Of a stretch of DNA of 64,000 nt, positions 27,525-48,671 are shown in pieces (position 1 is the stretch's first letter; every line of letters starts with the position of its first letter). The notes below the pieces were generated by a model. That model did not search any database and was not told the origin of the DNA. It was given only the letters and a program-made list of their open reading frames with translations. The stretch comes from Geobacter sp. (GTDB lineage Bacteria; Desulfobacterota; Desulfuromonadia; Geobacterales; Geobacteraceae). The DNA is taken from contig NZ_DAHVYG010000085.1 of assembly GCF_027327745.1 (NCBI RefSeq), positions 20,465-84,464 on the forward strand, in the 5' to 3' direction. The position numbers were made by a program, and so were the translations under genes.

Positions 27525-27601
27525 GGGGGGCACACTTCGCCCCCTCGATCATGTTGGGCTCCTGTCCCGGAGAAGCGTCTACATTGTTATAGACGCGTAG
27601 T

Positions 27602-27637: not shown

Positions 27638-27659
27638 AACACCACTAAGGAGGATCGCC

Positions 27660-28133: not shown

Positions 28134-28188
28134 TCAGGTCGAGAATTGAATACACTACCGCGATGCGCGGCGAGATGGAGGAAGTGTC

Positions 28189-28665: not shown

Positions 28666-28682
28666 AAACTGCTGCCTAACAC

Positions 28683-28976: not shown

Positions 28977-29024
28977 CTTCCAGCATGAGACCCTTGCGGA
29001 ACCGCGCCGGCGCTGTCTCCTTTC

Positions 29025-29369: not shown

Positions 29370-29391
29370 GATTTATCTCCCTGATGATCAG

Positions 29392-30387: not shown

Positions 30388-30431
30388 CGGGTCTCCTTTT
30401 GTGGATGACGTGCATTCATTTCCGGGGCAGA

Positions 30432-31460: not shown

Positions 31461-31563
31461 GGTTCCCCTCCCTGATGACAGTGACGATGATTCACGAATC
31501 CTGAATTCGGCAGTTGGACGGGGTCTGCTCCGCTCAGAACGCCCTCTTTCTGCTGCGGCTAAC

Positions 31564-32448: not shown

Positions 32449-32519
32449 GCTGGTATCCTCCTGATATGCCCCATGCTGACGGTTTTGCTGATTTGTCGCG
32501 CGCCTTCCGCGGTCCGGTC

Positions 32520-32855
32520 TCAGCGCACCCGGATCGGGGGGATGTCGTTGTACGGGCGGTTGAGGACACTGACCGGCCTGGTGACTGGCAGTTGCCCCAC
32601 CCATACCTCCAGGACGTAGTTTCCCGGCGGGATGTTCTGGAGGTAGTAGAACCCCTGGTTGTCGGTGTACGCGGGGTAGGACCGCCCCCTGTCCCTGGAG
32701 AAGAGCGTCACGGCCATGGCGGTTGCCGGGTAGATGCCGTACGGGGTCCAGCGCTCGATCCTTCCGCGGACCGTCTGCGCCTCCGCCCACTGGGCACTTC
32801 CGAAAACGACGGAAAGCACCACTCCCCATGCTGCCAGTGTGGTTCTGACTCTCAT
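32520..32855 (-). CDS. secreted carboxypeptidase-regulatory-like (CarboxypepD_reg) beta-sandwich protein
   Basis: Signal peptide ...VVFGSAQWAEA. The motif TDNQGFYYLQNIPPGNYVLEV is typical of the fold. Confidence 0.6.
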   Translation of the reverse strand: MRVRTTLAAWGVVLSVVFGSAQWAEAQTVRGRIERWTPYGIYPATAMAVTLFSRDRGRSYPAYTDNQGFYYLQNIPPGNYVLEVWVGQLPVTRPVSVLNRPYNDIPPIRVR

Positions 32856-33424
32856 TGTGCCGGTCTCCCCGTGTTTCTTCCCATGTACGGAACGCTGGAG
32901 CGCTGCAGCCTTATCTGCTCGGCAATCAGCTTGGTCTTGCCCCCCTTGTCCGTTTCCACCGTGAGTCCCGGGCCGCCGAACGCGTACCGCTTGTCCCCGA
33001 GCGGAACGTATACCGATTCGTAACCGTCGTGGTGCAGAACGAGGGTCGGAAAATCGAGTTTGCCCGCCTGGTTACGCCTCACCGGGACGTCTAGGACGAA
33101 GCTCCCGTCGCCGAAAAACGTCACGGCATTCGGCCGCACCGATATGTCGGATTCGACCAGCGTATCCCCGGGGTTCGCCATCACCGCCTTCCCCTTGATC
33201 GTCCATACCTCGTAGGTCTTGGGGCGGGTTGTAATGAAGCCCGTCATGACCAGCACGAGCAGGAAATAGCCGGCGAACGCCCCCGAGAGCTGGACGTTCA
33301 ACCCCTTGAACGGCCCCCTGACGAACGTTCGGGAGGGGAGAAACCGGTAGATGATGACGGCGGGGACCAGGGGGAGGAGGATGGTCATCACCACCAGGGT
33401 CAGGTAGATGGCGTTGTCGCTCAC
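32852..33424 (-). CDS. membrane protein, unknown function (2-3 TM helices plus a soluble domain)
   Basis: GTG start. Hydrophobic IYLTLVVMTILLPLVPAVIIY and FAGYFLLVLVMTGFI. 4-nt overlap with the downstream gene. Confidence 0.55.
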   Translation of the reverse strand: MSDNAIYLTLVVMTILLPLVPAVIIYRFLPSRTFVRGPFKGLNVQLSGAFAGYFLLVLVMTGFITTRPKTYEVWTIKGKAVMANPGDTLVESDISVRPNAVTFFGDGSFVLDVPVRRNQAGKLDFPTLVLHHDGYESVYVPLGDKRYAFGGPGLTVETDKGGKTKLIAEQIRLQRSSVPYMGRNTGRPAQ

Positions 33425-33546
33425 AGTTTCTTAACCTCTGGCGTCTAGGGGTCTGTCGGACTTAGGGAATCGTAGAGAGATCGAATTGCATGGTAGGTCT
33501 CCTTGGATTATTGGACCCGGAAAGCCGGAAAACGCTCCCTGTCCCC

Positions 33547-34338
33547 TTACCGGTACGCCGGCAGCCGGACCACCTGGCGCGGCCCCTGGATCTGCTCTTT
33601 CTCCGTGCGGCGCGGGTCACGGAACTCCACCTCCACGTGGTACTCGGGGGCCAGGAGATCGGGGCCACCCCGGTATTCGTCGGCAAAGTAGACGAGCCTC
33701 ACGTCGCGGATGTCGTAAGGCCTCTTTCCGCACTCGTCCCGCCGGGCAAGCCCCTCGCGCACCGCGCGCAACACGTCGTGCTCGCGCACCAGCTCCCGCT
33801 CCTCGAACACGTCCAACCCTTCCCAGAGCCCCACATGCATCATGACGGGACGCTCGGTTTCCTTGAAGATCATCCGGACCTTCCCCCGGGGCCCCACCAC
33901 CGGCACCCCGTTGAGGGCGATCTTCGACATGACGTCGGTCTTGGCTTTCACCAGCCGGCGCTCCTTGCCGTTGAAGACCACCGCCTCGGTCTGGAACGCC
34001 TCCAGGTCGAAATCGAGCCGGATCCGCTCGTCGCCCCCCTTCGGAGCCAGATCGAACTTCTTCAGCAGTTCGCCGGCCCAGCTCCGGGCCCGCGTCTCGC
34101 TCACCGGCTTCTCGGCGCACTCCCCCCAGGATACCGACTGATCGGCGAAGAAGAGGAGACCGGCAAAGGTGGCGCAGGGGCGGGCGAAGGCCAGGGAGCG
34201 GGTGCCATCGCCGATGAAGAGGGCTTCGTCGGTCTCAGCCGCCTTCCCCTTGAGGTTCAGGGAGGCGGCCAGTTTCGTGAAGATGTCGGGGGTCAGTCTT
34301 TTCGTCGTCCGCTTGTATAGAAAGATAGAATCGGCCAT
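33547..34338 (-). CDS. 263-aa hypothetical protein
   Basis: ORF with a GAGGAGGA SD, 15 nt after the upstream stop. No family recognised. Confidence 0.6.
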   Translation of the reverse strand: MADSIFLYKRTTKRLTPDIFTKLAASLNLKGKAAETDEALFIGDGTRSLAFARPCATFAGLLFFADQSVSWGECAEKPVSETRARSWAGELLKKFDLAPKGGDERIRLDFDLEAFQTEAVVFNGKERRLVKAKTDVMSKIALNGVPVVGPRGKVRMIFKETERPVMMHVGLWEGLDVFEERELVREHDVLRAVREGLARRDECGKRPYDIRDVRLVYFADEYRGGPDLLAPEYHVEVEFRDPRRTEKEQIQGPRQVVRLPAYR

Positions 34339-34353
34339 GTCTGCTTCCTCCTC

Positions 34354-35139
34354 TCAGCAGGCGTGGGGGACCCACGTCCAACTGAACCAGTTGGCGGCTC
34401 CCCGGCGCGGGTCGGGGCTCACGTGTCCCCGGTCCCAGATGTAGTCGTTCTGGGTGTCGGTCCCCTGGGTGTTGGCGTAAAGGACCGCCGCCTCGTAGGG
34501 GGCCGGCTGGACCAGCGACGTCATGGCGAACCAGGCGTCGATCACCTTGAGGGGGATCCGGCCTATCATCCACTCGGGGATGCCGAAGATGACCGAGGGC
34601 CAGCGTCCGTCCAGGTATGCGGCGAAGTAGCGCCCGGGGGTCGCCAGATCGAGGCTCACGGTGGTGAAGGAGCAGATGGTGTGCATCCCCTGGAAAGCCT
34701 CGGCCCAGCGGTCGAAGACGTCGAGGTTGGTCCCCCCCAGGTTTGCGTCGAGCTGCAGGGTGTTGCAGACCTCCAGGGCGAGCCATTCGAGGTCGTCATA
34801 GCCGAGCCGCAAATCGCCGTTGGTGGGGCCGGAGTAGTGGTCGCACTCCACCAGGTTGTCGTCGGGGACATCGCAGCGGAAGTAGAATCCCCAGGGGCTG
34901 CCGTGCCCGGTGAAGTAGACGAAGTCCGCGGTGTCGACCCACTGGTCCGCGGTCCCCCCCTTGTCGGGGCGCTTGAAGTCCTGTTCCCAGGCGGCGCCGT
35001 TCCCCCAGTTGAAGGAACCGACCCAGCCATCGTGATTAACGAGTTCGTCGTAGAACCCCCCTGCATCCTCGTGCTCGTGGGTGAGCTGATTGAGGCAATC
35101 GTAGGTATTGACCCATTCGACGCCGACTTCCTTTGCCAT
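34354..35139 (-). CDS. 261-aa hypothetical protein with a gingipain/clan-CD-like His-Gly...Cys arrangement
   Basis: FVYFTGHGSPWGF then LEWLALEVCNT about 45 aa later. Compare gingipain INYTGHGSETAW ... LPFIFDVACVNG (from memory). GGAGGTG SD. Confidence 0.6.
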   Translation of the reverse strand: MAKEVGVEWVNTYDCLNQLTHEHEDAGGFYDELVNHDGWVGSFNWGNGAAWEQDFKRPDKGGTADQWVDTADFVYFTGHGSPWGFYFRCDVPDDNLVECDHYSGPTNGDLRLGYDDLEWLALEVCNTLQLDANLGGTNLDVFDRWAEAFQGMHTICSFTTVSLDLATPGRYFAAYLDGRWPSVIFGIPEWMIGRIPLKVIDAWFAMTSLVQPAPYEAAVLYANTQGTDTQNDYIWDRGHVSPDPRRGAANWFSWTWVPHAC

Positions 35140-35170
35140 GGTGCACCTCCGTGTGGTTGGCGGTTCGTTG

Positions 35171-37591
35171 TTACCCTTCCTCGCTCCTCAGGTCGTTGCA
35201 GATGCAGACCGCCCACGGCGACGACCAGGCGTGGTGGTAGCCGCCGTTCCAGCCGTCGCTCCAGGTCTTGTCCCGGGCGTAGAGCTGGAAGGTGTAGCCG
35301 CAGCATTCGCCCCGCTTGAGGGAGAAGCCGGCCGGGACCGTGTAATGCTCGGCCGCCGGGATCGACGGTGCGCAGACGGCGTCGAAGATCCGCAGGTCGA
35401 GGAGGGTGAGGAGCCCCGCCTGCCGTGCCGGGACGAGGGGAGGGGCCGGACAGCCGCCGACGGCCGGCAGCGGCTCGCACCTGACCCCCGGCTGGCCGAC
35501 CCGCTGGGTCCCCCGCAAAGGGTCGGTGCCGTAGGCGATGAAGTCGGGGGTGATCGGCACTACCAGCGTCGGCCCCCCCTGGCGGGTGATGGAGAGGGTG
35601 TAGTAGTCGAAGTTGTCGCTCGGGTAGGCCATGTCGGTCTCGTCGATGTACTCGTCATAGGCGATGCCGAAGAGCCCCCGGGGCCACGGCGCGCCGCACG
35701 GCGCCCCCCCCGGCACGAACTGGGAGAGCTTCAGGTCGGAGCAGCCGGGAAGCCCCTCGATGCCGGTGAAGGCGACGTGGACGTCGTTCTGCATCGGCTT
35801 GTTGTCGAACCAGACCTGCTGGGTGTCGTAAAAGAGGTTGCCGAGGGTGTCCTCCACCTGGAGCAGCAGGGTGTACTTGCCGCTGCGGCAGCGGTGGTGC
35901 GGATCGGGGCAGCCGCTCCCGTCGTTCACCCCCACCGGCAGGAGGCCGGCGCTGTTGAAGCAGAAATCCTGGAGCTTCCAGACCTTGAACTTCGAGCCGA
36001 GGAATTCCACCTCGGTCTCCACGAAATGGGTCGTGAGCGCCCGCTCGATGACCTGGTTCCACTGGGCCCGTTTCCAGAGCTCCACCGTGGGGTTCGGGTC
36101 GGGGTAGCAGACCGGGCCGTAGGGGAAGAGGAGCGATCCGGTGTAGTCGGCCGGATTGAAGCCGAGCTCTCCCGGGCCGGGGAGCCAGCCGAGGCCGAAG
36201 CGGAGATCGAAGCACTTGATCTTGCGGTTGTTGCACTCGCCCACGAAGGCACTCCCCTTGACGGTTACGCAGCCACCGACCGGCACGACCACCCCGCCGG
36301 GATTGCCGCTGACGATGGGGGCGGTGGAGACGAAGGGTCCGGGCGGGGTCTGCACCGGGGCGTTGGCCAGCCGGTCGATCCAGACCAGGCGCTTGAAGAG
36401 GCTGAACTGGATGCAGGTGCAGCAGCGCGGGACCCCCGGGAGGGCGGAGTAGACGCAGAGCCGGATTTCGTAGGAGCCGGCCGGCAGCGCCGTGGTGTCG
36501 AGCCAGCCGAGGGTGCCGGCCACCACCGGCGCGGTGCCGGTGGCGCCACTGCCGGGATAGCTGATGCCGGTTGCCTGCCAGCCGGTGTCATCGGCGCAGG
36601 GTGCCCCCTCAACCTTGCGCCATTCCAGGGTGTAGTGGTCGAATCCGCCGCCGGTGGCGGTGCCGTCGATCTCTACCACGAGCCCGCCGCCGTTCGGGTT
36701 GGGGAACTCCTCGGTGCACCCGGTCGGCTTCGTGAGGAGGCAGGTGAGCGGCTGGAGGCAGCGGCGCAGGCAGCGGAAGTAGTCGATCAGGCAGCGGACC
36801 AGGTCGAAGAACGTGCGGGAGCGAGCGAGGCACCAGCCGAAGCGGAAGGCGCAGAGGCACCAGCAGCGGCAGAACCAGAAGGCGCGCTCCTGGCGGAGCT
36901 TCTCGAAGAGCTCGGCGCCGAGGAGGAACCGGGCGTTCTCGACGGTCATGAACCGCTCGAAGAGGGACTCGGCCTCGCCGGCTCCGGCGTGGCAGTCGAT
37001 TTTTCCCGCCACCGCCTCGTCAGCCAGCTCGCCGGCCCGCTCGGCGGCCCGGGCCTCCCGTTCCAGGGAGGGCTTGAAGACGGCGGCGAAGGCGCCGACC
37101 AGGCTGCGGAAGTCGGCGCGCTCCGCGGCGGTGAGGGGGCGGCTCCCGATGGAGTCGTCGAACAGCCGGCGGATGCAGAGCCAGTAGCGGTAGAGGTAAT
37201 AGACGGCGGCGGGGAAGGTGCGGGCGCGGGAGAGGAGCCAGCCGAAGCGGAGGCAGCAGAGGATTTTCCGCAGGCACCAGCGCCACTGGTCGATGGGGCC
37301 GAGGAGCTCCAGCGCCTTCGGGTCCAGGAGCCGCAGGGCCACCTTCTCGTCCCCCAAGGGGGCGAAGATTCGGTCGGCCATGAGCTGCTCGTCCTCGCAG
37401 GTGTGGGGGTGCTTTTCCGTCTCCTCCAGGAGCCGCTCCGCCGACCTGATCAGGGCGAGGTCTTCTTCGAGGATCGGGCGATAGGCGTTCAGGAGTTCCT
37501 GCAGGACGAAGAGGAAATCCTCCCGTTTCACATCCTCGGGAAGCTGGCTTGCAATGAGCTTTTCAACGGTTTCCTTGGGTGCTTTTGCCAT
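35171..37591 (-). CDS. 806-aa Cys/Trp-rich protein: helical N-terminal third with two W/C/R-rich duplicated segments, beta-rich Cys-rich remainder
   Basis: AAAGGAGA SD. Duplicated segments at aa 103-143 and 238-279. 'HYTLEW' and 'DYYTLSI' beta-sandwich-like motifs. No signal peptide. Confidence 0.7.
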   Translation of the reverse strand: MAKAPKETVEKLIASQLPEDVKREDFLFVLQELLNAYRPILEEDLALIRSAERLLEETEKHPHTCEDEQLMADRIFAPLGDEKVALRLLDPKALELLGPIDQWRWCLRKILCCLRFGWLLSRARTFPAAVYYLYRYWLCIRRLFDDSIGSRPLTAAERADFRSLVGAFAAVFKPSLEREARAAERAGELADEAVAGKIDCHAGAGEAESLFERFMTVENARFLLGAELFEKLRQERAFWFCRCWCLCAFRFGWCLARSRTFFDLVRCLIDYFRCLRRCLQPLTCLLTKPTGCTEEFPNPNGGGLVVEIDGTATGGGFDHYTLEWRKVEGAPCADDTGWQATGISYPGSGATGTAPVVAGTLGWLDTTALPAGSYEIRLCVYSALPGVPRCCTCIQFSLFKRLVWIDRLANAPVQTPPGPFVSTAPIVSGNPGGVVVPVGGCVTVKGSAFVGECNNRKIKCFDLRFGLGWLPGPGELGFNPADYTGSLLFPYGPVCYPDPNPTVELWKRAQWNQVIERALTTHFVETEVEFLGSKFKVWKLQDFCFNSAGLLPVGVNDGSGCPDPHHRCRSGKYTLLLQVEDTLGNLFYDTQQVWFDNKPMQNDVHVAFTGIEGLPGCSDLKLSQFVPGGAPCGAPWPRGLFGIAYDEYIDETDMAYPSDNFDYYTLSITRQGGPTLVVPITPDFIAYGTDPLRGTQRVGQPGVRCEPLPAVGGCPAPPLVPARQAGLLTLLDLRIFDAVCAPSIPAAEHYTVPAGFSLKRGECCGYTFQLYARDKTWSDGWNGGYHHAWSSPWAVCICNDLRSEEG

Positions 37592-37655
37592 CCGTGGCGT
37601 CTCCTTTCATTTCCGCGTCCGTGCGGAGTTCTTCGATGCTGTCGGGCGGTCCGTC

Positions 37656-38465
37656 TTACGCGAACCGCAGGTACCGCGTCGCTACCCACTGCTGCTCCGA
37701 CGGATGGATGCGGCACCACCCGTCGGCCGTCTCGAAGACGTTCACCCTCACCCCCCGCGCCAGGCTCTTCACGATGGGGAACGACGCCCCTCGGCCGCTC
37801 CGCACGTTGAGCGTCGTGGCGATGACATCCGCCGCCCCGTTGGCCTGCGGCGGAGTGGGGGCAACCCCTCCCGTCAGGGTGGCAAGGGTCCGGGCGACGA
37901 GCGGGACGAAGTTGGCCGCCGCCGAGTCGACCGAGTTTCCGCCGAAGAACGCGCTCCCCGGGCACGATTTCGTCGTCCCGCTCCCGCCGGTCCGCTGGCC
38001 GGAGTTCAGGTCGTACCAGTGGTGGAAGACGATGGTGTCGGTGGAGGGGGTGAGGTGGAACTCGCGGCAGAGGAGGGCGTTGATCTTGACGATGGCGTCG
38101 CGGTGGGCGGGGGTCATGCTGTTCCCCCCGCCATCGAAGTTGCCGAGGTTCTCCAGGCAGATCCCCTCCTGGTTGGCCCCCTTGATCCCCGCCGGCACCT
38201 TGTCGATGGAGCGGCAGAGCGCCACCGTGCCGTCGGGGAAGGAGGTGAGGTTCTGGGCGATCTCCGCGAACCCCCGTTCGGCCATGTGGAAATGCTCCAT
38301 CCCGTTGAGGAGCGCGAAGTGGTTGCCGCCGTCGAACTGGGCGTAAGAGGGCTGGAAGGTGTGGTGGTTCTGGACGAGTTTCACCGAGCGGCTGAAGCGG
38401 GTCTGCTGCAGCCACTGGTCGAACTCGTCGATGGTGAAGAGGACGAACTTCCCCTTTTTCTGCAT
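37656..38465 (-). CDS. N-acetylmuramoyl-L-alanine amidase (Amidase_2/PGRP fold) with a C-terminal SH3b domain; no signal peptide
   Basis: VQNHHT...FHHWYD...KSCPG amidase_2-type pattern. C-terminal ATTLNVRSGRGASFPIVKSLARGVRVNVFETADGWCRI SH3b. GGGAGGG SD before ATG 38465. Confidence 0.75.
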   Translation of the reverse strand: MQKKGKFVLFTIDEFDQWLQQTRFSRSVKLVQNHHTFQPSYAQFDGGNHFALLNGMEHFHMAERGFAEIAQNLTSFPDGTVALCRSIDKVPAGIKGANQEGICLENLGNFDGGGNSMTPAHRDAIVKINALLCREFHLTPSTDTIVFHHWYDLNSGQRTGGSGTTKSCPGSAFFGGNSVDSAAANFVPLVARTLATLTGGVAPTPPQANGAADVIATTLNVRSGRGASFPIVKSLARGVRVNVFETADGWCRIHPSEQQWVATRYLRFA

Positions 38466-38488
38466 GATTCCCTCCCGGAACGTCATTG

Positions 38489-38524
38489 CAAAAGGGCGCG
38501 CCCTGACCGGAGCGCGCCCCTTTC
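38489..38524 (-). terminator. rho-independent terminator after the caspase gene
   Basis: On the minus strand, GGGGCGCGC-TCCGGTCAG-GGCGCGCCC is followed by TTTTGC. Confidence 0.7.
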
Positions 38525-38527
38525 ATC

Positions 38528-39364
38528 TCAGATGGTGAACGGCTTCTGCTTCAGGAACGCCGGATCGGGAGCCCCGACCATGAAGAGGTTCGGGGTCTGG
38601 TCGGGGGGCATCCGGCGGACGATGTTGCGGTGGAAGGTCCGGTAGTTCCCCCGGAAGAGGCTGTCCTTCCAGACCTGCAGGAGCTGGCTCGTGAAGAGGC
38701 CGTTGAAGGCGCCGTCCTGGGAGAGTTGGTTGTCCTGGCAGCCGGAGATGAGAAGCACCGATGCCTTCGGGTCGGGCTGGGAATCTTTGGGGGTTTTCCC
38801 CTGCTGGAGACCGTCGTAGAACGCCTTGTTGGCGCGGTAGGTGCGCAACGCCGCGTCGACGGGCATGGCCCGGTAGCGGACCTGCCCCCCTTCGTCGGCG
38901 GTGGCCCGGGCGGCGGTGGTGCCGGTGAAGTAGGCCATCTTGGTGACGGTGCCGCTGTGGCAGCTGTCGGAGAAGACCAGGATCCGCACGCCGGCGGCGA
39001 ACTGGCCGAAGAGGGCGTAGAGTTCGTCGTCGATCAGCTGGCCGTCGTAGAGGCACCAGGTCTCGTCCTGGCCGTCCGGTTCGTCGCTGCTTCGGTCGGG
39101 AACCTGTCCCCCGTGCCCCGAGTAGCTCAGCATGAAGATATCGCCCGCCTTGAGGTCGTGGGCCGCCTTTTTGATTCCGTCGACCACATGGGCGCGGGTC
39201 GCCGCCTTGGTCAGGAGCGGCGAGCAGATGAACTCCCGCGACCTGGCGATGGCGGTCATGTCCTCGGCGTCCGCCTCGCAGGCGTTGAGCTTGCCCGACC
39301 ACCCTCCGTAGTGGTTCGGGTCGACGGCGTTGAGTCCGATGGTGAGTGCGAGTCCTTTTGCCAT
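38528..39364 (-). CDS. caspase-family (C14) cysteine peptidase, stand-alone domain
   Basis: Catalytic dyad motifs FMLSYSGHGG and VFSDSCHSG. 278 aa. AAAGGAGGA SD. Confidence 0.9.
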   Translation of the reverse strand: MAKGLALTIGLNAVDPNHYGGWSGKLNACEADAEDMTAIARSREFICSPLLTKAATRAHVVDGIKKAAHDLKAGDIFMLSYSGHGGQVPDRSSDEPDGQDETWCLYDGQLIDDELYALFGQFAAGVRILVFSDSCHSGTVTKMAYFTGTTAARATADEGGQVRYRAMPVDAALRTYRANKAFYDGLQQGKTPKDSQPDPKASVLLISGCQDNQLSQDGAFNGLFTSQLLQVWKDSLFRGNYRTFHRNIVRRMPPDQTPNLFMVGAPDPAFLKQKPFTI

Positions 39365-39388
39365 GGGTGTGTCCTCCTTTAATTGGCT

Positions 39389-40180
39389 CTACCCTTTCAG
39401 GATTTCCGCCAGTTCCGCGATGAGCTTCGCGAAATCCTCCCGCTCCAGGAGCCTGCGGAAGTGGGCCGGTTCGCGGATTCCGGGGGAGAGCCGGGCGCCC
39501 CTGCCGGTGCGGAGATCTACGATCTCCTCGATGATCTCACGGAAGTGGGCCGGTTCGCGGACGCCGGGGACGAACCCGAGGCTCTCGCGCCGGGACACCG
39601 CCACCCGTTCCGCCAGCTTGAGGTCGGTGTAGACCTCGTCGATGGCGGCGATGAGGATCTCCTCTTCCTTGGCCAGGGCGATGCCGGCGTCGAACCAGTG
39701 GGCCGGCTCGCGGATGCCGGGATTAAGCTGGGCGAGCTCTTCGGCGACCGCCGGTTGGACCGTCACGGTCTGGAAGTTCCTGAAGTGGGCCGGCTCGATC
39801 CAGTCGGCCTTGAGCTTGAGCTTCAGGGCCTCGTGCCAGAGGAGGAAGAGGGAGTAACTGCCGGCAGCGACCTTCCCCGCGCTCTTGCCGGTGATCTCCT
39901 TCAGCACCGGGGCGAACTCCTTCTCGAAGAGGGTCCCCTGGAGGTTCTTCCCCCCCAGTTCGGCCCGGGCGATCTTGCCTCCCTCGGCGATGTCGAGGTT
40001 CAGCGGGAGGGTAGTGGTGACCACAAAGCCGATCTGCCGGGAGACCCGGTCGAAGACCGTGTCGGCCTTTTCCTGGATCGAATTCTTGAGGAAGCGGTAG
40101 ATTTCGACGAGGTCGTCGAAGCGCTGCACGAGCACCGGGTGGGCCGGTTCGACCCAGTCACGAATCTTGGTTTTTGCCAT
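39389..40180 (-). CDS. 263-aa Cys-free protein with five E-P-A-H repeats (novel repeat protein)
   Basis: EPAH at aa 11, 129, 158, 209 and 237. Contexts: DWVEPAHP, DWIEPAHF, PGIREPAHW, PGVREPAHF, PGIREPAHF. GGGAGGAA SD. Confidence 0.75.
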   Translation of the reverse strand: MAKTKIRDWVEPAHPVLVQRFDDLVEIYRFLKNSIQEKADTVFDRVSRQIGFVVTTTLPLNLDIAEGGKIARAELGGKNLQGTLFEKEFAPVLKEITGKSAGKVAAGSYSLFLLWHEALKLKLKADWIEPAHFRNFQTVTVQPAVAEELAQLNPGIREPAHWFDAGIALAKEEEILIAAIDEVYTDLKLAERVAVSRRESLGFVPGVREPAHFREIIEEIVDLRTGRGARLSPGIREPAHFRRLLEREDFAKLIAELAEILKG

Positions 40181-40301
40181 TGCCCTGTTCCTCCCTGAAC
40201 ATGCGATGTGATTAAACGATTAATTCCGATGGTGTCGTCGGCTGGTTATCCCTTCACGGCGTCACCCCCTCCCGGTGGCAATCCACGCAGATCCATATCT
40301 C

Positions 40302-42065
40302 TCATGGCGCCGTGGCGTCCTTTCCCTCACCGAGCCGCTTCCTGAATTCGGCGTAGGGGATCGGCGTCCGGAGTGCGCCGAAGAATCCGAGCCCCACCGG
40401 GTCGGCGTCGCCTCGGGCAAGGCTCTCGATGCCGGCGTAGGGGACCGCTTCTCCCCTGAACAGTGAGATCCCGGGCTGATCCAGGTCGGGGTCCGTCCGG
40501 GGATGACCCGCGTCCCGCTCGGCCCATGCCCGCCGCAACCGCTCCAGGATCCGCTCGCCCCGGCCCCGCAGCTCGACACCGCCGTCGTCCACCCGCTGGC
40601 GCATGACCCGCATGGCGGCGCGGACCGCCTCCCCCTCCTCCGGGTCGATCGACTGGACGATGTCCCAGATCCGGGAGAGGCAGCGGTAGGTGTCGATGTT
40701 GGTCTCCTTGATGAACGAGCGGACCTCGCTCCTGATCTCCTGGGAGAGAAGCTCGGGGTGGAAGCGGCGCAGGAGCTGGAAGGAGAAGTCGACCTCCATG
40801 TTGAAGTAGTGGAGGCCGTAGTCGTTGAAGTTGCGATCGAAGAAGGCGTAGTTGGCGATCTTGTGGAACGCCTCCACCTGCGGCTCCTTGATCCGGTAGT
40901 CGAAGCCGAAGTAGTCGCCGCTGATGATCCCGTCGTTCCGGAGCTTCTTCTCCAGCCCCGTGGCGGCGTAGGCCTCGGCCCGGCAGAAGTTGAACGGGTT
41001 GTCGATGTGCCGCTCCATGAACCGGAGGTTGATCAGCAGATCGTCCATGGTGGCGTCGGGCTCGAACATGAGGAGGTTGTACGCCACGTGGACGTCGAAG
41101 TCGTTCAAGATCCGGAGGGCGTTTTCGATCGCTTCCCGGGTGCACTTGCGGTTGAGGTTCCTCAGCCCCCGCTCCGACGCGTTTTCCACCCCGAGGAAGA
41201 CCCGGAAGACACCGAGGTCGTCCAGGACCCCCATCGCCTCCCGGTTGATGGAGTCGGGGCGGGCCTTGACCGCGATGGCGATCTCCTTCACCCCCTCCTT
41301 CCAGAGGGAGTCGCGCAGCTCGGTGAAGCGGGCCAGGGCCTGCGTCGGCTCCGGGAGGAAGAAGTTGTCGTCCTGGAAGTTGAAGATCCGCACGCCGTGG
41401 CCGTGGTAGAGCTCCTTCATCTCGGCCACGATGTTCGGGACGCTCCGGATCCGGAACTTGCGCCCGCCCCCCGAGCGGTACCAGGCGTCGATGCTGCAGA
41501 AGGCGCAACTGCGCCAGCACCCCCGCGAGGAGAGGATGCTTGCGATCGGTTTGCCGTAATACTCGTGGAAGGTGGTGCGACGGGGGAAGGGGAGAGCGTC
41601 GAGGTCCTCCGGGTTTCCGCGCGACGGGTTCACCGCGATGGAGCCGTCCCCCCGCCGGTAGGAGAAACCGGCAAGTTCCGGGAGATCGGCGGGGTTCGTT
41701 GCGAGGGCACAGATCAGCTCCTCCCCTTCGCCGAGGGCGATGGAGTCGAACTCCGGGAAGTCGGCCAGGAGCTGTCGGCAGTTCAGGGCCGCGAAGTGGC
41801 CGCCGGCGGTGAGGTGGCCGCAGAAGCCTCCTTCCCGCAGGGCCTTTGCCAGACGGCAGAACTCCCGGGCCCTGCCGGTGAAGACCATGGAGAGGCCGGC
41901 GATGTCGGGGGCGAAGGCGTTCACCTGCCGGACCACGGCCGGGATCTCCCCCTTCTCGTTGAAGGGGAAGATGACCGCCAGGTGTCCCTCCCGTTCCAGG
42001 GCCGATGCCATGTAGCGGAGTCCCAGGTTCTCTTCGAGCTCCGCGCCGATAAGAGCAATTTTCAT
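40302..42065 (-). CDS. B12-binding-domain radical SAM enzyme (class B)
   Basis: N-terminal Rossmann-like cobalamin-binding region (MKIALIGAE...GLSMVF...GGHFA). Radical SAM cluster motif SSRGCWRSCAFCS (Cx3Cx2C). GGGGAGGAAG SD before ATG 42065. The 695-aa track ORF is a 5' extension. Confidence 0.9.
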   Translation of the reverse strand: MKIALIGAELEENLGLRYMASALEREGHLAVIFPFNEKGEIPAVVRQVNAFAPDIAGLSMVFTGRAREFCRLAKALREGGFCGHLTAGGHFAALNCRQLLADFPEFDSIALGEGEELICALATNPADLPELAGFSYRRGDGSIAVNPSRGNPEDLDALPFPRRTTFHEYYGKPIASILSSRGCWRSCAFCSIDAWYRSGGGRKFRIRSVPNIVAEMKELYHGHGVRIFNFQDDNFFLPEPTQALARFTELRDSLWKEGVKEIAIAVKARPDSINREAMGVLDDLGVFRVFLGVENASERGLRNLNRKCTREAIENALRILNDFDVHVAYNLLMFEPDATMDDLLINLRFMERHIDNPFNFCRAEAYAATGLEKKLRNDGIISGDYFGFDYRIKEPQVEAFHKIANYAFFDRNFNDYGLHYFNMEVDFSFQLLRRFHPELLSQEIRSEVRSFIKETNIDTYRCLSRIWDIVQSIDPEEGEAVRAAMRVMRQRVDDGGVELRGRGERILERLRRAWAERDAGHPRTDPDLDQPGISLFRGEAVPYAGIESLARGDADPVGLGFFGALRTPIPYAEFRKRLGEGKDATAP

Positions 42066-42501
42066 CCACTTCCTCCCCGTGATCCGGCCGCCGGAAAAAC
42101 GGGGCCGTCTGCGGTACCGTTGACCGCGTTCGCTTCTCTGCGTCACCTCGTGTAGGCGGCATTGCCAATGAGAAAACATCCGATGCCCAGGACGGCGGAC
42201 GGGGGAAGGGGCTGACTGGTGTGGCGGCGTGCAGCGGGCCGCCGGATGCGGGAAGAGAGGTGCGCCTTCCCTGGCGCCTTCTGCCGCACGATGCGGCAGT
42301 GGGGCCCGTCCTGGGCCACAATTAGTTGTTGGGCGGCATTGTGCAGCGGTAGCCTGGGATGAGTATATCGTGCAAAGCGATTGCGACAAGTCGCGAATCG
42401 AATAATTTCTTCATGTTACAAAAAACGTCACGCGGAGCCGGCGTGCCGTTCTTGTGTTAGAATTGAAACAGCCGTCCAATTGCCAAAGAGGAGGGGAGCC
42501 G

Positions 42502-42780
42502 ATGATGTACGGAGTCGTGAGGCCAGCCCATCTGCTGCTATTGTTCATTGTCGTCGTTCCCGGGATCATCGGGGGGATCCTCGCCGCGAACCGGGGAAGG
42601 AACTTCGTCGGGTGGAGTCTCGCCTGCGCCGTCTTCCCGATCTTTCTCCTGGTGATCTATTTCGAGAAGCCCCGCCGGGAGGTGGAGGGGAAGTTCCGCA
42701 GGTGCGGCTCCTGCGGCGAGTATTACCGGTGGCGTGATCCCTCCTGCAAGTACTGCGGCACCCCCCGGCCGTCGGTCTGA
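42502..42780 (+). CDS. small membrane protein with a C-terminal zinc ribbon
   Basis: Two TM helices, then CGSCGEYYRWRDPSCKYCG. GAGGAGGGGAG SD before ATG 42502. Confidence 0.55.
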   Translation: MMYGVVRPAHLLLLFIVVVPGIIGGILAANRGRNFVGWSLACAVFPIFLLVIYFEKPRREVEGKFRRCGSCGEYYRWRDPSCKYCGTPRPSV

Positions 42781-45658: not shown

Positions 45659-45901
45659 ATGAGAAAAGCAGACCAGAGTATTAGAACCATCCTTGCGGAG
45701 AATATTCACAGATACCGTCGTAGCAATAACTTGTCTCAAGAGCAACTAGCCGACAAATGCGGCCTCCATCGTACCTATATCGGCTCTGTTGAACGCGGGG
45801 AAAGAAATGTTACGTTAAGTACGCTGGAGGTACTTGCAGAGGCTCTTGGTGTCTCAATACCCGAACTACTTACAAGGAAGGGGGAAGAAGTTGGCAAGTA
45901 A
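45659..45901 (+). CDS. restriction-modification controller (C) protein, XRE-family HTH
   Basis: LSQEQLADKCGLHRTYIGSVERGERNVTLSTLEVLAEAL is the typical C-protein HTH. About 80 aa from ATG 45659 (the ORF opens at 45611). Confidence 0.8.
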   Translation: MRKADQSIRTILAENIHRYRRSNNLSQEQLADKCGLHRTYIGSVERGERNVTLSTLEVLAEALGVSIPELLTRKGEEVGK

Positions 45902-46943
45902 GCCAAAATCTTCTCAGCAATTTGTGAAGGCTATTTCTCAAAGCGGCCTTTCCATTTATGACGACATTGAAGTTGGTGATCCAAACCTCTGGATACCGGC
46001 CCCTGACTTGGAAACTCTGCTGGAGGAGGGGTTACATAGTTTTTCCACAGCCGGATTAGCCAACCGCACTCGGTCCAAGGTAGTTAAAGAGGAGGTTTGC
46101 CGTATCCTCGGTTACCCTGTGCCCCGATCGTTCAAAAAAACACGCCCCCGCTTTCCGGGACAAAAGTTTGATACCTATGTTCAGAAGTCCAATAACCTCC
46201 AGGTATGGAATGAAGAGCTGGAGCCAACACGTCGCTATGTGATTATTAAAGTGTCAGATAATGGTACGATAGAGCGGGTCAAGGTCGTAACTGGCGATAG
46301 ACTGGCGTTGCTCGACACAACAGGAACATTGACTCAAAAATTTCAGGCACGGCTAATCCCAGGATTAGACCAAGCAGAACTTGTGGCTCCTGAAGATACG
46401 GATCGTCTTAGGCCTTTTGTCGGGAAAATCAGGAAGGGCAAGATAGCTGCCAGTCCTGTCGATAACCCTGCTGTCGGTGCACTTTTCCCGACTGCCGGAT
46501 TATATGAGCGGTTGCGACAGTTGGTTGGAACCAGCTTCGTGGACAGTGGTCACGACCAAGAGCGAAATCGTGGAGCTGCATTACATCGGCTTGTTTGCAA
46601 ACAACTGGGCTATGCTGATTACCAGGATGACGGCCGTTTTCCAGATGTGCGACACCAACTCCTGGAGGTAAAACTCCAAACCTCGCCGACCATTGATCTT
46701 GGTCTGGTTTGTCCCAACAGCATGGAAACCTTGGATATCCCCTTGCTTAAGGGACAGCAGATAAGGCATTGTGATGTCCGCTATGCACTATTTTATGCAA
46801 AGACTGACGGAAAACGCGTTACCCTGACCAACTTCTATCTGACCACCGGTGAAGCGTTCTTCAGCCGTTTTCCTCAGTTTCAGGGAAAGGTCCTCAATAA
46901 AAAGCTTCAGATTCCTTTACCGGCCGATTTTTTCAGTCGTTAG
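45891..46943 (+). CDS. type II restriction endonuclease candidate (MutH-like D-x6-E-x-K signature); start uncertain (TTG 45891 or ATG 45834)
   Basis: It lies downstream of and overlaps the C gene, and is convergent with the methylase. FPDVRHQLLEVK has the D-x6-E-x-K spacing of MutH Asp70/Glu77/Lys79. AT-richer composition. Confidence 0.6.
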   Translation: MASKPKSSQQFVKAISQSGLSIYDDIEVGDPNLWIPAPDLETLLEEGLHSFSTAGLANRTRSKVVKEEVCRILGYPVPRSFKKTRPRFPGQKFDTYVQKSNNLQVWNEELEPTRRYVIIKVSDNGTIERVKVVTGDRLALLDTTGTLTQKFQARLIPGLDQAELVAPEDTDRLRPFVGKIRKGKIAASPVDNPAVGALFPTAGLYERLRQLVGTSFVDSGHDQERNRGAALHRLVCKQLGYADYQDDGRFPDVRHQLLEVKLQTSPTIDLGLVCPNSMETLDIPLLKGQQIRHCDVRYALFYAKTDGKRVTLTNFYLTTGEAFFSRFPQFQGKVLNKKLQIPLPADFFSR

Positions 46944-48671
46944 GCCAAACGCCTGCCAAACCAGTTGGTTCAATTCCTTTTCCAGATTGTCCGCTTCCGG
47001 CGAAGGGGTAAGGAGATAGACGCGTTTTGTCGCCTCGATGATGGACTTGCCTATACGGCTCTGCGGGTCCGGCAGCGGGAACTTTTCCACATATTGCGTC
47101 ATGAAACGCCGTCGGCCGGCATAAAGCTTGTTCTTGAACTGATGATCGTAAAAATTTTCGATAAAGGTTGAGTTGCCCACCGCAAGCGCCAGCCAGAGTA
47201 GATCTGTCTGTGATACATTTCGGTACGTCAACCAGTAACAATCGCCATTTACCACACATCCGTCCAAATCTATCCAGAATGTTGGTTTTTCGGAAATGTC
47301 CCGGAAAACGATCTTCGGGGCTGCCCAGGCATCTGGGTCCTGCGGCACCCAGATCTCATACCAGTTGCGACCAGCCTCGATCACGTATTCACGACTTTCA
47401 AGCGCCGCTCGATGCCTGTTCAAATAGGCTGCCGTGCGTGGATACGCTGCCAGATCGACCACAGTCCGCTTCCCTTGCACCACATGATGGGGGTAGACGA
47501 TTTGCCATAGTTTCTCCAGACGGAGACCTTTGTAGCGCCGCGCCGAGTGGTGCGTGATAAGTGGACGGAGAAGTTCTGGCCTTTCAGCTTTGGGAAGACT
47601 TTTCCAATCTGACCGAATGAATACCTTGTCGGCGGTTGTCTTTACCCCGACGCGAATTTTCCCTATATCGCCAAAAGTGCTCCATGTATGGGATGCAACG
47701 GTTGCCAGCCAACTATCCAGGATCTTAGTTGCGATACGCCAGACACCGTCCATTTGGCTACCGTTGTCTAGAATGCCGTGTTGAACGAGAAATCGCCTCC
47801 CATCTCTAACTTCCACAACTCCGGTGTTTTCCAGTGCTTTTATCGGGTCGGAGGAGCAGACCTCGGCTGGTTCACTGGTCGCATAAATAGAAGTAAACCT
47901 TGCCTTGTCCTTTATTCGTCTTTTGGTGGAATCTGCTCCTTCAAGCAGCAGAACTGCCGGCAACACAGCCGCCTCAAACAGCTTGGTGTCGCCCATGTCC
48001 CATACGTGACGCACATTGAATTGTTCCAGGATGGCGCGGCGCACCGCGCAGCCCGATTTTGTAGTCATAAAACGGTTCGATACTATGATTCCAGCTATGC
48101 CACTTGGTTTGAGTACGCGCCCCATGCCAAGGATAAAAGCATGATAAAGGTCTACGCGACCTGATAGCCCAAACTTGGATGCCAGCGTTTGTGCCTGTTT
48201 TGCGCCCATGATCTGAGTTCTGACATAAGGAGGATTAGCTATGATCATGTCAAAGCCTTCAGGGGGCGGACCTTGGAATAGATTTCCGCTGCCGCTTGCG
48301 TCCAAATAATTTCCTGCAAATTCAAGGAAATCACCAAGTTTAATATGAACGTTTACATTTTGAAACGATTGCCTTAATCGCGCTGAGGTCAGGTTGACAG
48401 CTTTCTCTTGTGTGTCAAAGCCGAAGACCTCAATCCTTGTGCAGCTTTTTACTGTCAGTTTTTCGAGTAGACTGACCAGAAGTTCACCATCACCCACAGC
48501 AGGATCAAGAATTCGCAAGGGGCCTTTTTGTTTAGCCTCATCATAACCTTCAATAATTTGCTCCGCCACGAAATCCGATAGATTCTTTGGCGTATAAGTT
48601 GCTCCACCAGCCTTTTCTTCGGTGACAAGTTTATATCTTTTTGTAAGTTGGGATTGAGCATGAGCTTTCAT
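46917..48671 (-). CDS. N6-adenine DNA methyltransferase (gamma class, Eco57I/TaqI-like)
   Basis: Motif I ILDPAVGDGELL precedes motif IV IIANPPYVRTQ. 584 aa. The 3' end overlaps the endonuclease gene by 27 nt. Confidence 0.9.
   Translation of the reverse strand: MKAHAQSQLTKRYKLVTEEKAGGATYTPKNLSDFVAEQIIEGYDEAKQKGPLRILDPAVGDGELLVSLLEKLTVKSCTRIEVFGFDTQEKAVNLTSARLRQSFQNVNVHIKLGDFLEFAGNYLDASGSGNLFQGPPPEGFDMIIANPPYVRTQIMGAKQAQTLASKFGLSGRVDLYHAFILGMGRVLKPSGIAGIIVSNRFMTTKSGCAVRRAILEQFNVRHVWDMGDTKLFEAAVLPAVLLLEGADSTKRRIKDKARFTSIYATSEPAEVCSSDPIKALENTGVVEVRDGRRFLVQHGILDNGSQMDGVWRIATKILDSWLATVASHTWSTFGDIGKIRVGVKTTADKVFIRSDWKSLPKAERPELLRPLITHHSARRYKGLRLEKLWQIVYPHHVVQGKRTVVDLAAYPRTAAYLNRHRAALESREYVIEAGRNWYEIWVPQDPDAWAAPKIVFRDISEKPTFWIDLDGCVVNGDCYWLTYRNVSQTDLLWLALAVGNSTFIENFYDHQFKNKLYAGRRRFMTQYVEKFPLPDPQSRIGKSIIEATKRVYLLTPSPEADNLEKELNQLVWQAFGLTTEKIGR

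What the first reader, a model, noticed from the sequence alone, without database searches (positions are those of the whole stretch)
38528..42065. Candidate novel triad: B12-radical SAM enzyme, five-fold EPAH repeat protein and stand-alone caspase
Seen directly: a class-B radical SAM gene (Cx3Cx2C CWRSCAFC plus an N-terminal cobalamin-type domain); a 121-bp gap; a 263-aa Cys-free protein with five invariant E-P-A-H motifs; a 24-bp gap; a 278-aa C14 peptidase with an intact YSGHG/DSCHSG dyad; and then a strong terminator.

Three repeats read PG(I/V)R-EPAH(F/W), so an Arg sits immediately N-terminal of the motif. Bacterial and plant C14 meta/orthocaspases are Arg/Lys-specific (established). The repeat protein therefore looks like a multi-site substrate of its neighbour.

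Two readings are possible:
1. A RiPP-like pathway, in which the rSAM enzyme modifies the repeated His/aromatic motif and the caspase excises units.
2. Gasdermin-like logic, in which a caspase-like protease activates the adjacent ~260-aa effector by cleavage.

I do not recognise this gene triad as a described system.
Basis: partly seen in the sequence, partly recalled or inferred. Interest (0 to 1): 0.8.

Follow-up and report, generated by a model that had tools for sequence, protein, structure and literature searches.

The report
B12 radical-SAM enzyme with EPAH-repeat partner
A vitamin-B12-type radical SAM enzyme gene and the gene for a protein with several invariant Glu-Pro-Ala-His motifs form a conserved, undescribed two-gene unit in anaerobic bacteria and archaea, most likely an enzyme and its own protein substrate; the caspase next door is an independent neighbour, not a third partner.

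Summary

The triad is not a conserved system. In 43 genome loci from other species, the radical SAM (rSAM) gene lies directly upstream of the EPAH gene in 40. The caspase lies downstream in none.

Related Geobacter and Desulfuromonadales contigs show the same chromosomal slot in five forms:
- rSAM-EPAH-caspase-amidase (this window)
- rSAM-EPAH-caspase
- rSAM-EPAH alone
- caspase-amidase alone, through a clean 2.7-kb indel
- barnase-barstar-caspase

The caspase is an orthologue of G. sulfurreducens GSU0716 (PDB 3BIJ). Its family has at least 7996 members and occurs in unrelated contexts.

What is conserved is a two-gene unit: a class-B rSAM enzyme plus a roughly 260-aa protein with 3-9 E-P-(A/V)-H motifs. 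These motifs are invariant and fall mostly in low-confidence loops of the model. The protein has no Pfam or NCBIfam family and no structural match, so it is not gasdermin-like. I found no paper on it.

Where the rSAM gene is missing, the EPAH gene is broken.

Most likely the rSAM enzyme modifies the EPAH motifs after translation. The chemistry is unknown. This is a new variant of the rSAM-plus-ribosomal-substrate theme and is directly testable.

The parts
40302..42065 (-). Class-B (cobalamin-type) radical SAM enzyme, 587 aa; first gene of the conserved two-gene unit
   Evidence: Pfam B12-binding and Radical_SAM. CxxxCxxC at 41496-41519. The AF2 model matches OxsB, TsrM, MgmA, CysS and TokK at E 1e-12 to 3e-18. 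An orthologue lies directly upstream of the EPAH gene in 40 of 43 loci.
40181..40301 (-). 121-bp spacer between the rSAM and EPAH genes, ending in the ribosome-binding site GGGAGG
   Evidence: Sequence. No Rfam family in the region. It holds no ORF of 60 aa or more.
39389..40180 (-). EPAH-repeat protein, 263 aa, Cys-free; second gene of the unit and the putative substrate
   Evidence: 514 homologues and no Pfam or NCBIfam family. 179 cluster representatives in 1.84 billion proteins. In the AF2 model, residues 15-128 fold with confidence and the EPAH motifs lie mostly in low-confidence loops.
40139..40150 (-). EPAH motif 1 (residues 11-14, DWVEPAHP)
   Evidence: Invariant in alignment A1.
39785..39796 (-). 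EPAH motif 2 (residues 129-132, DWIEPAHF)
   Evidence: Invariant in A1.
39698..39709 (-). EPAH motif 3 (residues 158-161, PGIREPAHWF)
   Evidence: EPAHWF is invariant in A1.
39545..39556 (-). EPAH motif 4 (residues 209-212, PGVREPAHF), in the part where repeat number varies
39461..39472 (-). EPAH motif 5 (residues 237-240, PGIREPAHF)
39379..42087 (-). The 2.7-kb segment (rSAM and EPAH genes with their ribosome-binding sites) that is present here and absent from a close relative
   Evidence: blastn of L050 against the window shows the flanks 87-93% identical and meeting across this segment.
38528..39364 (-). Stand-alone C14 caspase, orthologue of GSU0716 (PDB 3BIJ); co-transcribed here by position but an independent gene
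   Evidence: Pfam PF00656. 3BIJ at E 6e-140. It occurs without the pair in L050 and L057 and is absent from 43 other pair loci.
38490..38523 (-). GC-rich hairpin followed by UUUU: likely intrinsic terminator after the caspase gene
   Evidence: -27.9 kcal/mol, z -3.4.

Best explanation
The functional unit is a two-gene cassette, not a triad. It consists of a cobalamin-dependent (class B) radical SAM enzyme and, immediately downstream, its dedicated protein substrate.

The substrate has a folded N-terminal domain. It carries 3-9 copies of an invariant E-P-(A/V)-H tetrapeptide, most of them in flexible segments of the model. The number of C-terminal PG(V/I)REPAH(F/W) units varies between species.

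Inferred mechanism: the enzyme binds the partner and uses SAM, its [4Fe-4S] cluster and cobalamin to modify a residue in each motif. C-methylation is the most likely reaction, because that is what most class-B enzymes do. A cross-link is the alternative.

The modified protein probably stays intracellular, since it has no signal peptide and no protease or exporter is conserved. It then either works as a modified protein or is trimmed by housekeeping proteases.

In this window the cassette sits in the 5' leader of a separate caspase-amidase gene set, so it is co-transcribed with the caspase only by position.

**Shown:** the gene pairing, the motif invariance, the class-B fold, and the independence of the caspase. 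**Inferred:** the substrate relationship and the chemistry.
For: **Pairing**
- An rSAM orthologue (56-82% identity) lies directly upstream of the EPAH gene in 40 of 43 species loci spanning Geobacterales, Syntrophobacterales, Syntrophorhabdales, Acidobacteriota, Anaerolineae, Brocadia, Nitrospinae and Bathyarchaeota-labelled MAGs.
- These two are the only conserved gene clusters. The next best cluster is in 6 loci.
- A census of 130 flanking ORFs from 39 loci gives 173 Pfam families, none in more than 4 members.
- Two further rSAM orthologues, one from Ca. Methanoperedens, also have the EPAH gene next.
- Family sizes are similar: 816 rSAM against 514 EPAH proteins.
- The identity matrices of the two proteins correlate at r 0.88, Mantel 0 of 2000.

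**Dependence**
- The pair is gained or lost as one 2.7-kb unit between close relatives.
- In the two loci where the rSAM gene is verifiably absent, the EPAH gene has an in-frame stop (L008) or lacks its first ~45 codons (L040).

**Motif**
- E, P, A and H are each 100% conserved in 607 motifs of 120 homologues.
- Divergent members show EPVH or EPAQ.
- 63 different 12-mers encode the motif, using all synonymous codons, so selection acts on the protein.
- In the AF2 model four of the five motifs lie wholly or partly in segments with pLDDT below 50 (10-12, 127-158, 201-245). The third motif lies just past the second of these segments, where a short helix is predicted.
- Tandem 10-residue units occur, such as NPG(I/V)REPAH(F/I) five times in P0086.

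**Enzyme**
- Class-B fold.
- The closest solved sequence is 9CCB, which is MgmA/QCMT, a B12-rSAM enzyme that C-methylates a residue of a protein, McrA (PMC11796369 and PMC12931638).
Against: - There is no biochemical evidence. Adjacency and co-loss also fit a non-substrate partner.
- The partner is unusually large and has a conserved folded domain, unlike most RiPP (ribosomally synthesised, post-translationally modified peptide) precursors.
- No RiPP recognition element, protease or exporter is conserved.
- Similarity to MgmA is weak (E 4e-9). Some class-B enzymes, such as BchE, OxsB and AprD4, are not methyltransferases.
- An E-x-x-H spacing could also bind metal.
- The AF2 model of the partner is only moderate (mean pLDDT 65.6).
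Confidence: 0.55

Rival explanations
1. One reading: a three-gene RiPP-like pathway in which the rSAM enzyme modifies the motif and the adjacent caspase cuts after the Arg that precedes EPAH to release units.
For: - In this window, and in one other Geobacter lineage (L047), the caspase gene follows the EPAH gene closely: 24 bp here, and in L047 the next called gene begins 59 bases after the EPAH gene ends.
- A terminator-like hairpin follows the caspase gene.
- Three of the five motifs here follow Arg.
- The caspase has the DSCHSG signature of Arg/Lys-specific metacaspases (own knowledge).
- Unrelated Cys peptidases recur near the pair in some loci: Peptidase_C1 in L002, L011 and L013, with a homologue partly on contig L010, and a C70/C39-like peptidase in L001 and L034.
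Against: - No caspase lies downstream of the EPAH gene in 43 of 43 genome loci, nor in L044.
- L050 keeps caspase, amidase and big806 with 91-99% identical proteins but lacks exactly the pair.
- L057 has barnase-barstar in place of the pair, in front of the same caspase.
- L003 and L007 have the pair and big806 without the caspase.
- The caspase family has at least 7996 members at 66-91% identity. It sits elsewhere beside phage-tail-like genes, Peptidase_C1, nuclease/phosphatase, phospholipase C or patatin genes.
- Arg is at position -1 in only 49% of motifs, and the two N-terminal conserved motifs follow V, I or M.
Confidence: 0.07
2. One reading: gasdermin-like logic, in which the caspase activates the ~260-aa neighbour by cleavage to form a pore or other effector.
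For: Only the size of the protein and its position next to a caspase-like protease.
Against: - The AF2 model has no PDB match better than E 0.5, although PDB holds bacterial gasdermins. The best matches are TonB/TolA C-terminal domains at probability 0.35 or less.
- PADLOC finds nothing for the protein.
- The conserved partner of the protein is the rSAM enzyme, not a protease.
Confidence: 0.02
3. The EPAH protein is an accessory of the enzyme, not its substrate. It could be a corrinoid, tetrapyrrole or metal carrier that uses Glu/His of the motif as ligands, or a scaffold or chaperone. The rSAM enzyme would then act on a small molecule, as BchE, HpnR and OxsB do.
For: - The best NCBIfam hits are small-molecule enzymes: BchE 97 bits, then HpnR and HpnJ.
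- OxsB is the top structural match.
- The E-x-x-H spacing, and an aromatic residue after His in 70% of motifs, suit ligand binding.
- The folded N-terminal domain is well conserved.
- No protease or exporter is conserved.
Against: - All NCBIfam scores are far below the cut-offs, for example 97 against 481 for BchE.
- Pro and Ala are as invariant as Glu and His, which a ligand site would not require.
- Most motifs lie in low-confidence, variable-number tandem units rather than in a pocket.
- No pathway genes for any small molecule are conserved nearby.
Confidence: 0.2
4. The pair is a self-contained conflict cassette comparable to toxin plus immunity. The rSAM enzyme would modify an EPAH-like site in some target, and the repeat protein would be a decoy, antidote or sensor.
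For: - At the same chromosomal slot a relative carries barnase-barstar instead of the pair.
- The pair is patchily distributed across bacteria and archaea, and is present or absent between close strains.
- Here it lies at the edge of an island of degradative enzymes.
Against: - It is absent from IMG/VR viral contigs and from PLSDB plasmids.
- Only a weak, generic rSAM hit in PADLOC, 24.6 bits.
- In Acidobacteriota and archaeal loci the neighbours are housekeeping genes: MCH, RsgA and serine-pathway-type genes.
- The strong conservation of the enzyme (mean column identity 73%) is unlike fast-evolving conflict genes.
Confidence: 0.05

Closest known systems
MgmA/QCMT (PDB 9CCB), the B12-dependent rSAM glutamine C-methyltransferase of methyl-coenzyme M reductase
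   Same: - Class-B architecture: an N-terminal cobalamin domain followed by the rSAM barrel.
- It acts on a residue of a protein.
- It is the closest solved sequence (E 4e-9) and a strong fold match (E 1e-14).
- Identity of 9CCB taken from PMC11796369 and PMC12931638.
   Different: - About 16% identity only.
- The TIGR04014 score is 58 bits against a cut-off of 360.
- MgmA modifies one site in a large enzyme encoded elsewhere. Here a dedicated adjacent protein carries 3-9 identical sites.
His-Xaa-Ser repeat protein HxsA with rSAM maturases, and other triceptide-type rSAM systems (own knowledge, not tested here)
   Same: A ribosomal product with many copies of a very short invariant motif containing His, encoded next to the rSAM enzyme presumed to modify every copy.
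   Different: - Those maturases are SPASM-type, not cobalamin-type.
- Their precursors lack a large folded domain.
- There is no sequence relationship: no NCBIfam hit for the EPAH protein.
SCIFF peptide plus its rSAM maturase (own knowledge)
   Same: A widespread, strictly paired two-gene cassette of rSAM enzyme and ribosomal substrate in anaerobes, with no conserved protease or exporter and no known role.
   Different: SCIFF is a ~45-aa Cys-rich peptide with a SPASM enzyme that makes thioether links. Here the partner is Cys-free and ~260 aa, and the enzyme is class B.
Class-B rSAM C-methyltransferases of RiPPs (PoyB/PoyC-type, TIGR03975 rSAM_ocin_1; ApyD)
   Same: A cobalamin rSAM enzyme that acts repeatedly on one ribosomal precursor. 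There are weak profile hits: 63 bits to rSAM_ocin_1 and 73.5 bits to ApyD.
   Different: - The scores are far below the cut-offs of 281.85 and 750.
- Those clusters have leader-type precursors, proteases and transporters, none of which is conserved here.
GSU0716 of Geobacter sulfurreducens (PDB 3BIJ), a bacterial stand-alone caspase homologue
   Same: The window's caspase aligns end to end at E 6e-140. It has the same length and the same His/Cys dyad.
   Different: Nothing notable. This is an orthologue of a structurally known but functionally uncharacterised protein. It is used in the literature only as a modelling template or comparison (PMC3881575 and PMC3734836).

Membership tests
Class B (cobalamin-dependent) radical SAM enzymes | CxxxCxxC motif for the radical SAM [4Fe-4S] cluster | tested here: met
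   CWRSCAFC at residues 183-190. C183, C187 and C190 are invariant in 30 orthologues.
Class B (cobalamin-dependent) radical SAM enzymes | N-terminal Rossmann-type cobalamin-binding domain before the rSAM barrel | tested here: met
   PF02310 at residues 12-121, E 1e-11. The model matches OxsB, TsrM, MgmA, CysS and TokK over 410-650 columns at E 3e-18 to 1e-12.
Class B (cobalamin-dependent) radical SAM enzymes | Binds cobalamin and uses it in catalysis | not testable with these tools
   Needs purified protein.
Named B12-rSAM families (BchE, HpnR, HpnJ, ApyD, QCMT TIGR04014, rSAM_ocin_1 and others) | Score at or above the curated NCBIfam cut-off | tested here: not met
   The best hit is BchE at 97.2 bits against a cut-off of 481. 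All 25 listed families are far below their cut-offs.
RiPP biosynthetic cluster (rSAM type) | Gene for the modified ribosomal product lies next to the maturase | tested here: met
   Adjacent in 40 of 43 loci and in the additional loci L044, L047, L060 and L061. That it is the substrate is inferred.
RiPP biosynthetic cluster (rSAM type) | Short precursor with a leader and one or more cores | tested here: inconclusive
   The protein is 263 aa with a confidently folded domain at residues 15-128. It also has variable-number tandem PG(V/I)REPAH(F/W) units like a multi-core precursor.
RiPP biosynthetic cluster (rSAM type) | Conserved dedicated protease and/or exporter | tested here: not met
   No third conserved gene. 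In the neighbour census no Pfam family occurs in more than 4 of 130 flanking ORFs.
RiPP biosynthetic cluster (rSAM type) | RiPP recognition element (PqqD-like) in the enzyme or as a separate protein | tested here: inconclusive
   Pfam shows none. The C-terminal third of the enzyme is helical, with a conserved PIPYxxFK tail. No profile-profile test was run.
Gasdermin plus activating protease | Gasdermin fold in the ~260-aa protein | tested here: not met
   Foldseek against PDB gives no match better than E 0.5.
Gasdermin plus activating protease | Protease gene conserved next to the effector gene | tested here: not met
   Caspase downstream in 0 of 43 genome loci.
Peptidase C14 (caspase, metacaspase, orthocaspase) | C14 domain with the catalytic His and Cys | tested here: met
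   PF00656 at E 2e-24. YSGHG and DSCHSG are present. 3BIJ at E 6e-140 and metacaspase structures at E 1e-15 to 4e-7.
Known anti-phage defence systems (PADLOC) | Significant match of the components to a defence-system model | tested here: not met
   Only generic hits: rSAM to PDC-M51A at 24.6 bits and caspase at 39 bits. Nothing for the EPAH protein.

The most novel reading that the evidence does not exclude
The pair installs a so far undescribed post-translational modification on the tetrapeptide E-P-(A/V)-H. This could be C-methylation, or a Glu/His-centred cross-link made by a cobalamin rSAM enzyme. The repeat protein would then be either a multi-copy precursor of a small peptide or peptide-derived cofactor, or a modified functional protein. 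The system is shared by anaerobic bacteria and archaea.
Probability: 0.45. Interest if true: 0.7.

Novelty: new variant of a known kind. Interest (0 to 1): 0.55.

Why it matters
Class-B radical SAM enzymes are among the largest pools of unassigned enzyme chemistry. Very few have a known protein or peptide substrate.

This family of about 800 sequences comes with an obvious candidate substrate encoded next door. That substrate has an invariant four-residue target repeated several times. A single co-expression and mass-spectrometry experiment could therefore reveal the reaction.

The unit occurs in environmentally important anaerobes: Geobacter and relatives, peat and soil Acidobacteriota, anammox bacteria, Methanoperedens and Bathyarchaeia. 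A new modification, or a peptide-derived product, would be relevant to their physiology.

The analysis also removes a false lead. The caspase belongs to a different, already known family and to a variable island of degradative enzymes.

Tried and rejected
- **Triad synteny.** tblastn of all window proteins against 43 genome loci found no caspase partner.
- **Gasdermin or pore-former fold.** Foldseek of the EPAH model against PDB gave nothing.
- **Family assignment of the EPAH protein.** Pfam, NCBIfam and PADLOC gave no hit. A profile search of 1.84 billion representatives found only the family itself, 179 representatives.
- **A hidden third partner.** All-against-all clustering of ORFs, Pfam on individual neighbours and a census of 130 flanking ORFs found none.
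- **Relationship of big806 to large neighbours elsewhere (C4, C16).** No similarity.
- **RNA elements or a B12 riboswitch around the genes.** No Rfam match.
- **Mobile-element carriage.** No match in IMG/VR viral contigs or PLSDB plasmids.
- **Literature.** Searches for the motif and for rSAM-plus-repeat systems found nothing on this pair.
- **Fused rSAM-linker-EPAH structure prediction.** The metagenome scan was not needed.

Full report
**1. Observation**

The region holds three minus-strand genes exactly as described.
- A 587-aa protein at 40302-42065 has Pfam B12-binding and Radical_SAM domains and the motif CWRSCAFC.
- After a 121-bp gap comes a 263-aa Cys-free protein at 39389-40180. It has five EPAH tetrapeptides, at residues 11, 129, 158, 209 and 237. 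Its composition predicts 0.003.
- After a 24-bp gap comes a 278-aa Peptidase_C14 protein at 38528-39364, with YSGHG and DSCHSG.
- A GC-rich hairpin with a UUUU tail follows (-27.9 kcal/mol, z -3.4).

These points rest.

**2. The triad is not conserved, but a pair is**

The EPAH protein has 514 homologues in the large protein collection. None carries a Pfam domain or an informative name. A pattern scan of one genome per species returned 43 loci. They come from Geobacterales, Syntrophobacterales, Syntrophorhabdales, Acidobacteriota, Anaerolineae, Ca. Brocadia and Nitrospinae. Some MAGs are labelled Bathyarchaeota, and one of these carries the archaeal MCH gene next to the pair.

tblastn with the window's proteins gave a clear result.
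- An rSAM orthologue of 56-82% identity lies directly upstream of the EPAH gene in 40 of 43 loci.
- The caspase lies downstream in none.

Clustering of all ORFs in these loci found only two widely shared clusters, the rSAM enzyme (40 loci) and the EPAH protein (42 loci). The next cluster is in 6 loci. A Pfam census of the two nearest ORFs on each side in 39 non-redundant loci gave 173 families. None occurs in more than 4 of the 130 ORFs. Genes just downstream differ from locus to locus: Peptidase_C1, a SPASM rSAM, MCH, RsgA and a nitroreductase. Two further rSAM orthologues chosen from the enzyme's own hit list, one from Ca. Methanoperedens, also have the EPAH gene next.

**3. Natural presence/absence variants separate the caspase from the pair**

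The slot lies between a small zinc-ribbon membrane protein gene (window 42454-42780) and an 806-aa Cys-rich protein gene (big806, 35171-37591). In related Geobacter and Desulfuromonadales contigs this slot takes five forms.

| Locus | Content of the slot |
|---|---|
| This window | rSAM-EPAH-caspase-amidase-big806 |
| L047 | rSAM-EPAH-caspase-big806 |
| L003 (G. hydrogenophilus) and L007 | rSAM-EPAH-big806 |
| L050 | caspase-amidase-big806 |
| L057 | barnase-barstar-caspase-big806 |

L050 is a close relative. Its flanks are 87-93% identical at the DNA level and its big806 is 99% identical. The alignment breaks exactly at window 42088 and 39378. So 2.7 kb holding only the rSAM and EPAH genes is present or absent as one piece. 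The upstream leader that precedes the rSAM gene here precedes the caspase gene in L050. Co-transcription of the caspase with the pair in this window therefore follows from position alone.

**4. The caspase**

It is an orthologue of GSU0716 of G. sulfurreducens, whose structure is solved (PDB 3BIJ, E 6e-140). The literature uses that structure as a metacaspase template.

The family is very large and unusually conserved. At least 7996 proteins reach E 1e-10, and the best 120 are 66-91% identical at about 277-278 aa, across phyla.

Elsewhere it sits in quite different company:
- after phage-tail/baseplate-like genes (L052);
- among GH46, Peptidase_C1, Exo_endo_phos and phospholipase C genes (L054, L059);
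- near SLT and patatin genes (L058).

The caspase does not need the EPAH protein. Arg precedes only 49% of 607 EPAH motifs, and the two conserved N-terminal motifs follow V, I or M.

**5. Anatomy of the pair**

*The enzyme.* It is strongly conserved, with mean column identity of 73% over 30 orthologues. The invariant Cys residues are C70, C183/187/190 and C361. A variable linker is followed by a conserved PIPYxxFK tail. Its AlphaFold model (pLDDT 74.5) matches the cobalamin rSAM enzymes OxsB, TsrM, MgmA, CysS and TokK. By sequence the closest solved structure is 9CCB. This is MgmA/QCMT, which C-methylates a glutamine of methyl-coenzyme M reductase. No NCBIfam family comes near its cut-off.

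*The partner.* Its model has a confident N-terminal domain at residues 15-128 and a second conserved helical stretch around residues 170-190. Four of the five EPAH motifs lie wholly or partly in low-confidence segments, and the third lies at the start of a short predicted helix just past one of them. It has no structural neighbour in PDB.

Across 120 homologues there are 3-9 motifs per protein, and E, P, A and H are invariant in all 607. Divergent and archaeal members use EPVH or EPAQ. Motif number changes by tandem duplication of PG(V/I)REPAH(F/W) units. In long members the units come together with a repeated amphipathic helix of the form ...EIAxVLxRYG. The motif is encoded by 63 different 12-mers using every synonymous codon, so the constraint is on the protein.

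The family is isolated. A profile search of 1.84 billion representatives found 179 proteins, all of the same family.

**6. Evidence that the two genes depend on each other**

- They are lost together in L050.
- In the two loci where the rSAM gene is verifiably missing, the EPAH gene is damaged. L008 has an in-frame stop inside a motif, and L040 lacks about 45 N-terminal codons. A third copy, at a contig edge, is frameshifted.
- The pairwise identity matrices of the two proteins correlate at r 0.88, Mantel 0 of 2000. Shared ancestry contributes to this figure.

**7. Interpretation**

The best-supported reading is an enzyme and its dedicated protein substrate. The class-B rSAM enzyme would modify a residue in each EPAH motif.
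- Methylation is the default expectation for this enzyme class, and the nearest solved relative methylates a protein.
- A cross-link cannot be excluded.
- No protease, exporter or signal peptide is conserved. The product is therefore more likely an intracellular modified protein, or a precursor processed by general proteases, than a classical secreted RiPP.

I put this reading at 0.55.

The main rival, at 0.2, is that the partner is a cofactor or metal carrier or a scaffold, and the enzyme works on a small molecule. The invariance of Pro and Ala, and the variable tandem units in flexible regions, argue against it.

Its weak support is that unrelated Cys peptidases recur near the pair in some Desulfobacterota-type loci. 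The gasdermin-like model is not supported (0.02). A conflict-cassette reading, prompted by the barnase-barstar swap, is possible but weak (0.05).

**8. Novelty**

Searches of the paper library for the motif, and for cobalamin rSAM enzymes with repeat substrates, found nothing on this pair. Databases name the enzyme only generically or, automatically, as BchE or YgiQ.

The concept of an rSAM enzyme with an adjacent ribosomal substrate bearing a short repeated motif is known. I know the examples His-Xaa-Ser systems, SCIFF and proteusins from my own knowledge; they were not tested here. This finding is therefore a new variant of a known kind, not a new category. The caspase is already known. Overall interest is 0.55: a clean, testable lead for new class-B rSAM chemistry, but not the novel triad that was proposed.

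Noticed in passing
window 25383-39364: A run of stand-alone degradative enzymes:
- a 713-aa Peptidase_C1 protein (25383-27524, +)
- patatin (30432-31460, -)
- SNase nuclease (31564-32829, -)
- DUF6345 (34354-35139, -), with FTGHGS...EVCN, possibly a caspase-like His/Cys pair
- an 806-aa Cys-rich protein
- Amidase_2+SH3 (37656-38486, -)
- the caspase

The same caspase family elsewhere sits with a matching set of activities: peptidoglycan hydrolase, Peptidase_C1, nuclease/phosphatase and phospholipase (L054, L058, L059).
   Followed up: partly
window 38528-42453 and loci L003, L007, L047, L050, L057: The slot between the zinc-ribbon membrane protein gene and big806 is hypervariable, with five gene contents in related genomes. 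One of them is a barnase-barstar pair exactly where the rSAM-EPAH pair lies here.
   Followed up: yes
window 35171-37591 (-): The 806-aa Cys-rich protein (big806) has no Pfam, NCBIfam or PADLOC hit. It has repeated CxxFGWxLxRxRTF-like segments in its N-terminal third. It is conserved at 66-99% identity and is the constant gene of the variable slot in Geobacterales. It often lies directly after the caspase gene.
   Followed up: partly
L060:3924-9274 (Ca. Methanoperedens contig JAGFND010000029): Here the pair is flanked by two further radical SAM genes (348 and 364 aa) and by twin 69-aa ORFs that are about 70% identical to each other. This may be a separate peptide-modification cluster, or an extension of the pair in archaea.
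   Followed up: no
L008:1802-2530, L040:8001-8570, L043:192-796: These are degenerate EPAH genes. L008 has an in-frame stop in EPAH*F, L040 has lost its N-terminus, and L043 has frameshifts. L008 and L040 lack the rSAM gene upstream.
   Followed up: yes
protein P0142: A 395-aa member of the caspase family is fused to a Barstar domain (PF01337). This echoes the barnase-barstar genes next to the caspase in L057.
   Followed up: no
window 45834-48671: A likely restriction-modification pair lies in a low-GC stretch (GC 0.51 against about 0.65). It consists of an Eco57I/N6_Mtase/TaqI_C methylase (46917-48671, -) and a 369-aa protein with no Pfam hit (45834-46943, +). An HTH-type 96-aa ORF lies just upstream.
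   Followed up: no
L010, L011, L013 (upstream of the pair); L001, L034: Muramidase with PG_binding, a Peptidase_C1 protein and an IPT/TIG membrane protein precede the pair in the Syntrophobacterales and Syntrophorhabdales loci. A Peptidase_C70/C39-like gene precedes it in L001 and L034. Different Cys peptidases thus recur near the pair, and this remains unexplained.
   Followed up: partly
protein P0323: A 525-aa protein joins a multi-pass membrane domain to the C-terminal half of an EPAH-family protein. It could be a gene fusion or an assembly or gene-calling artefact.
   Followed up: no
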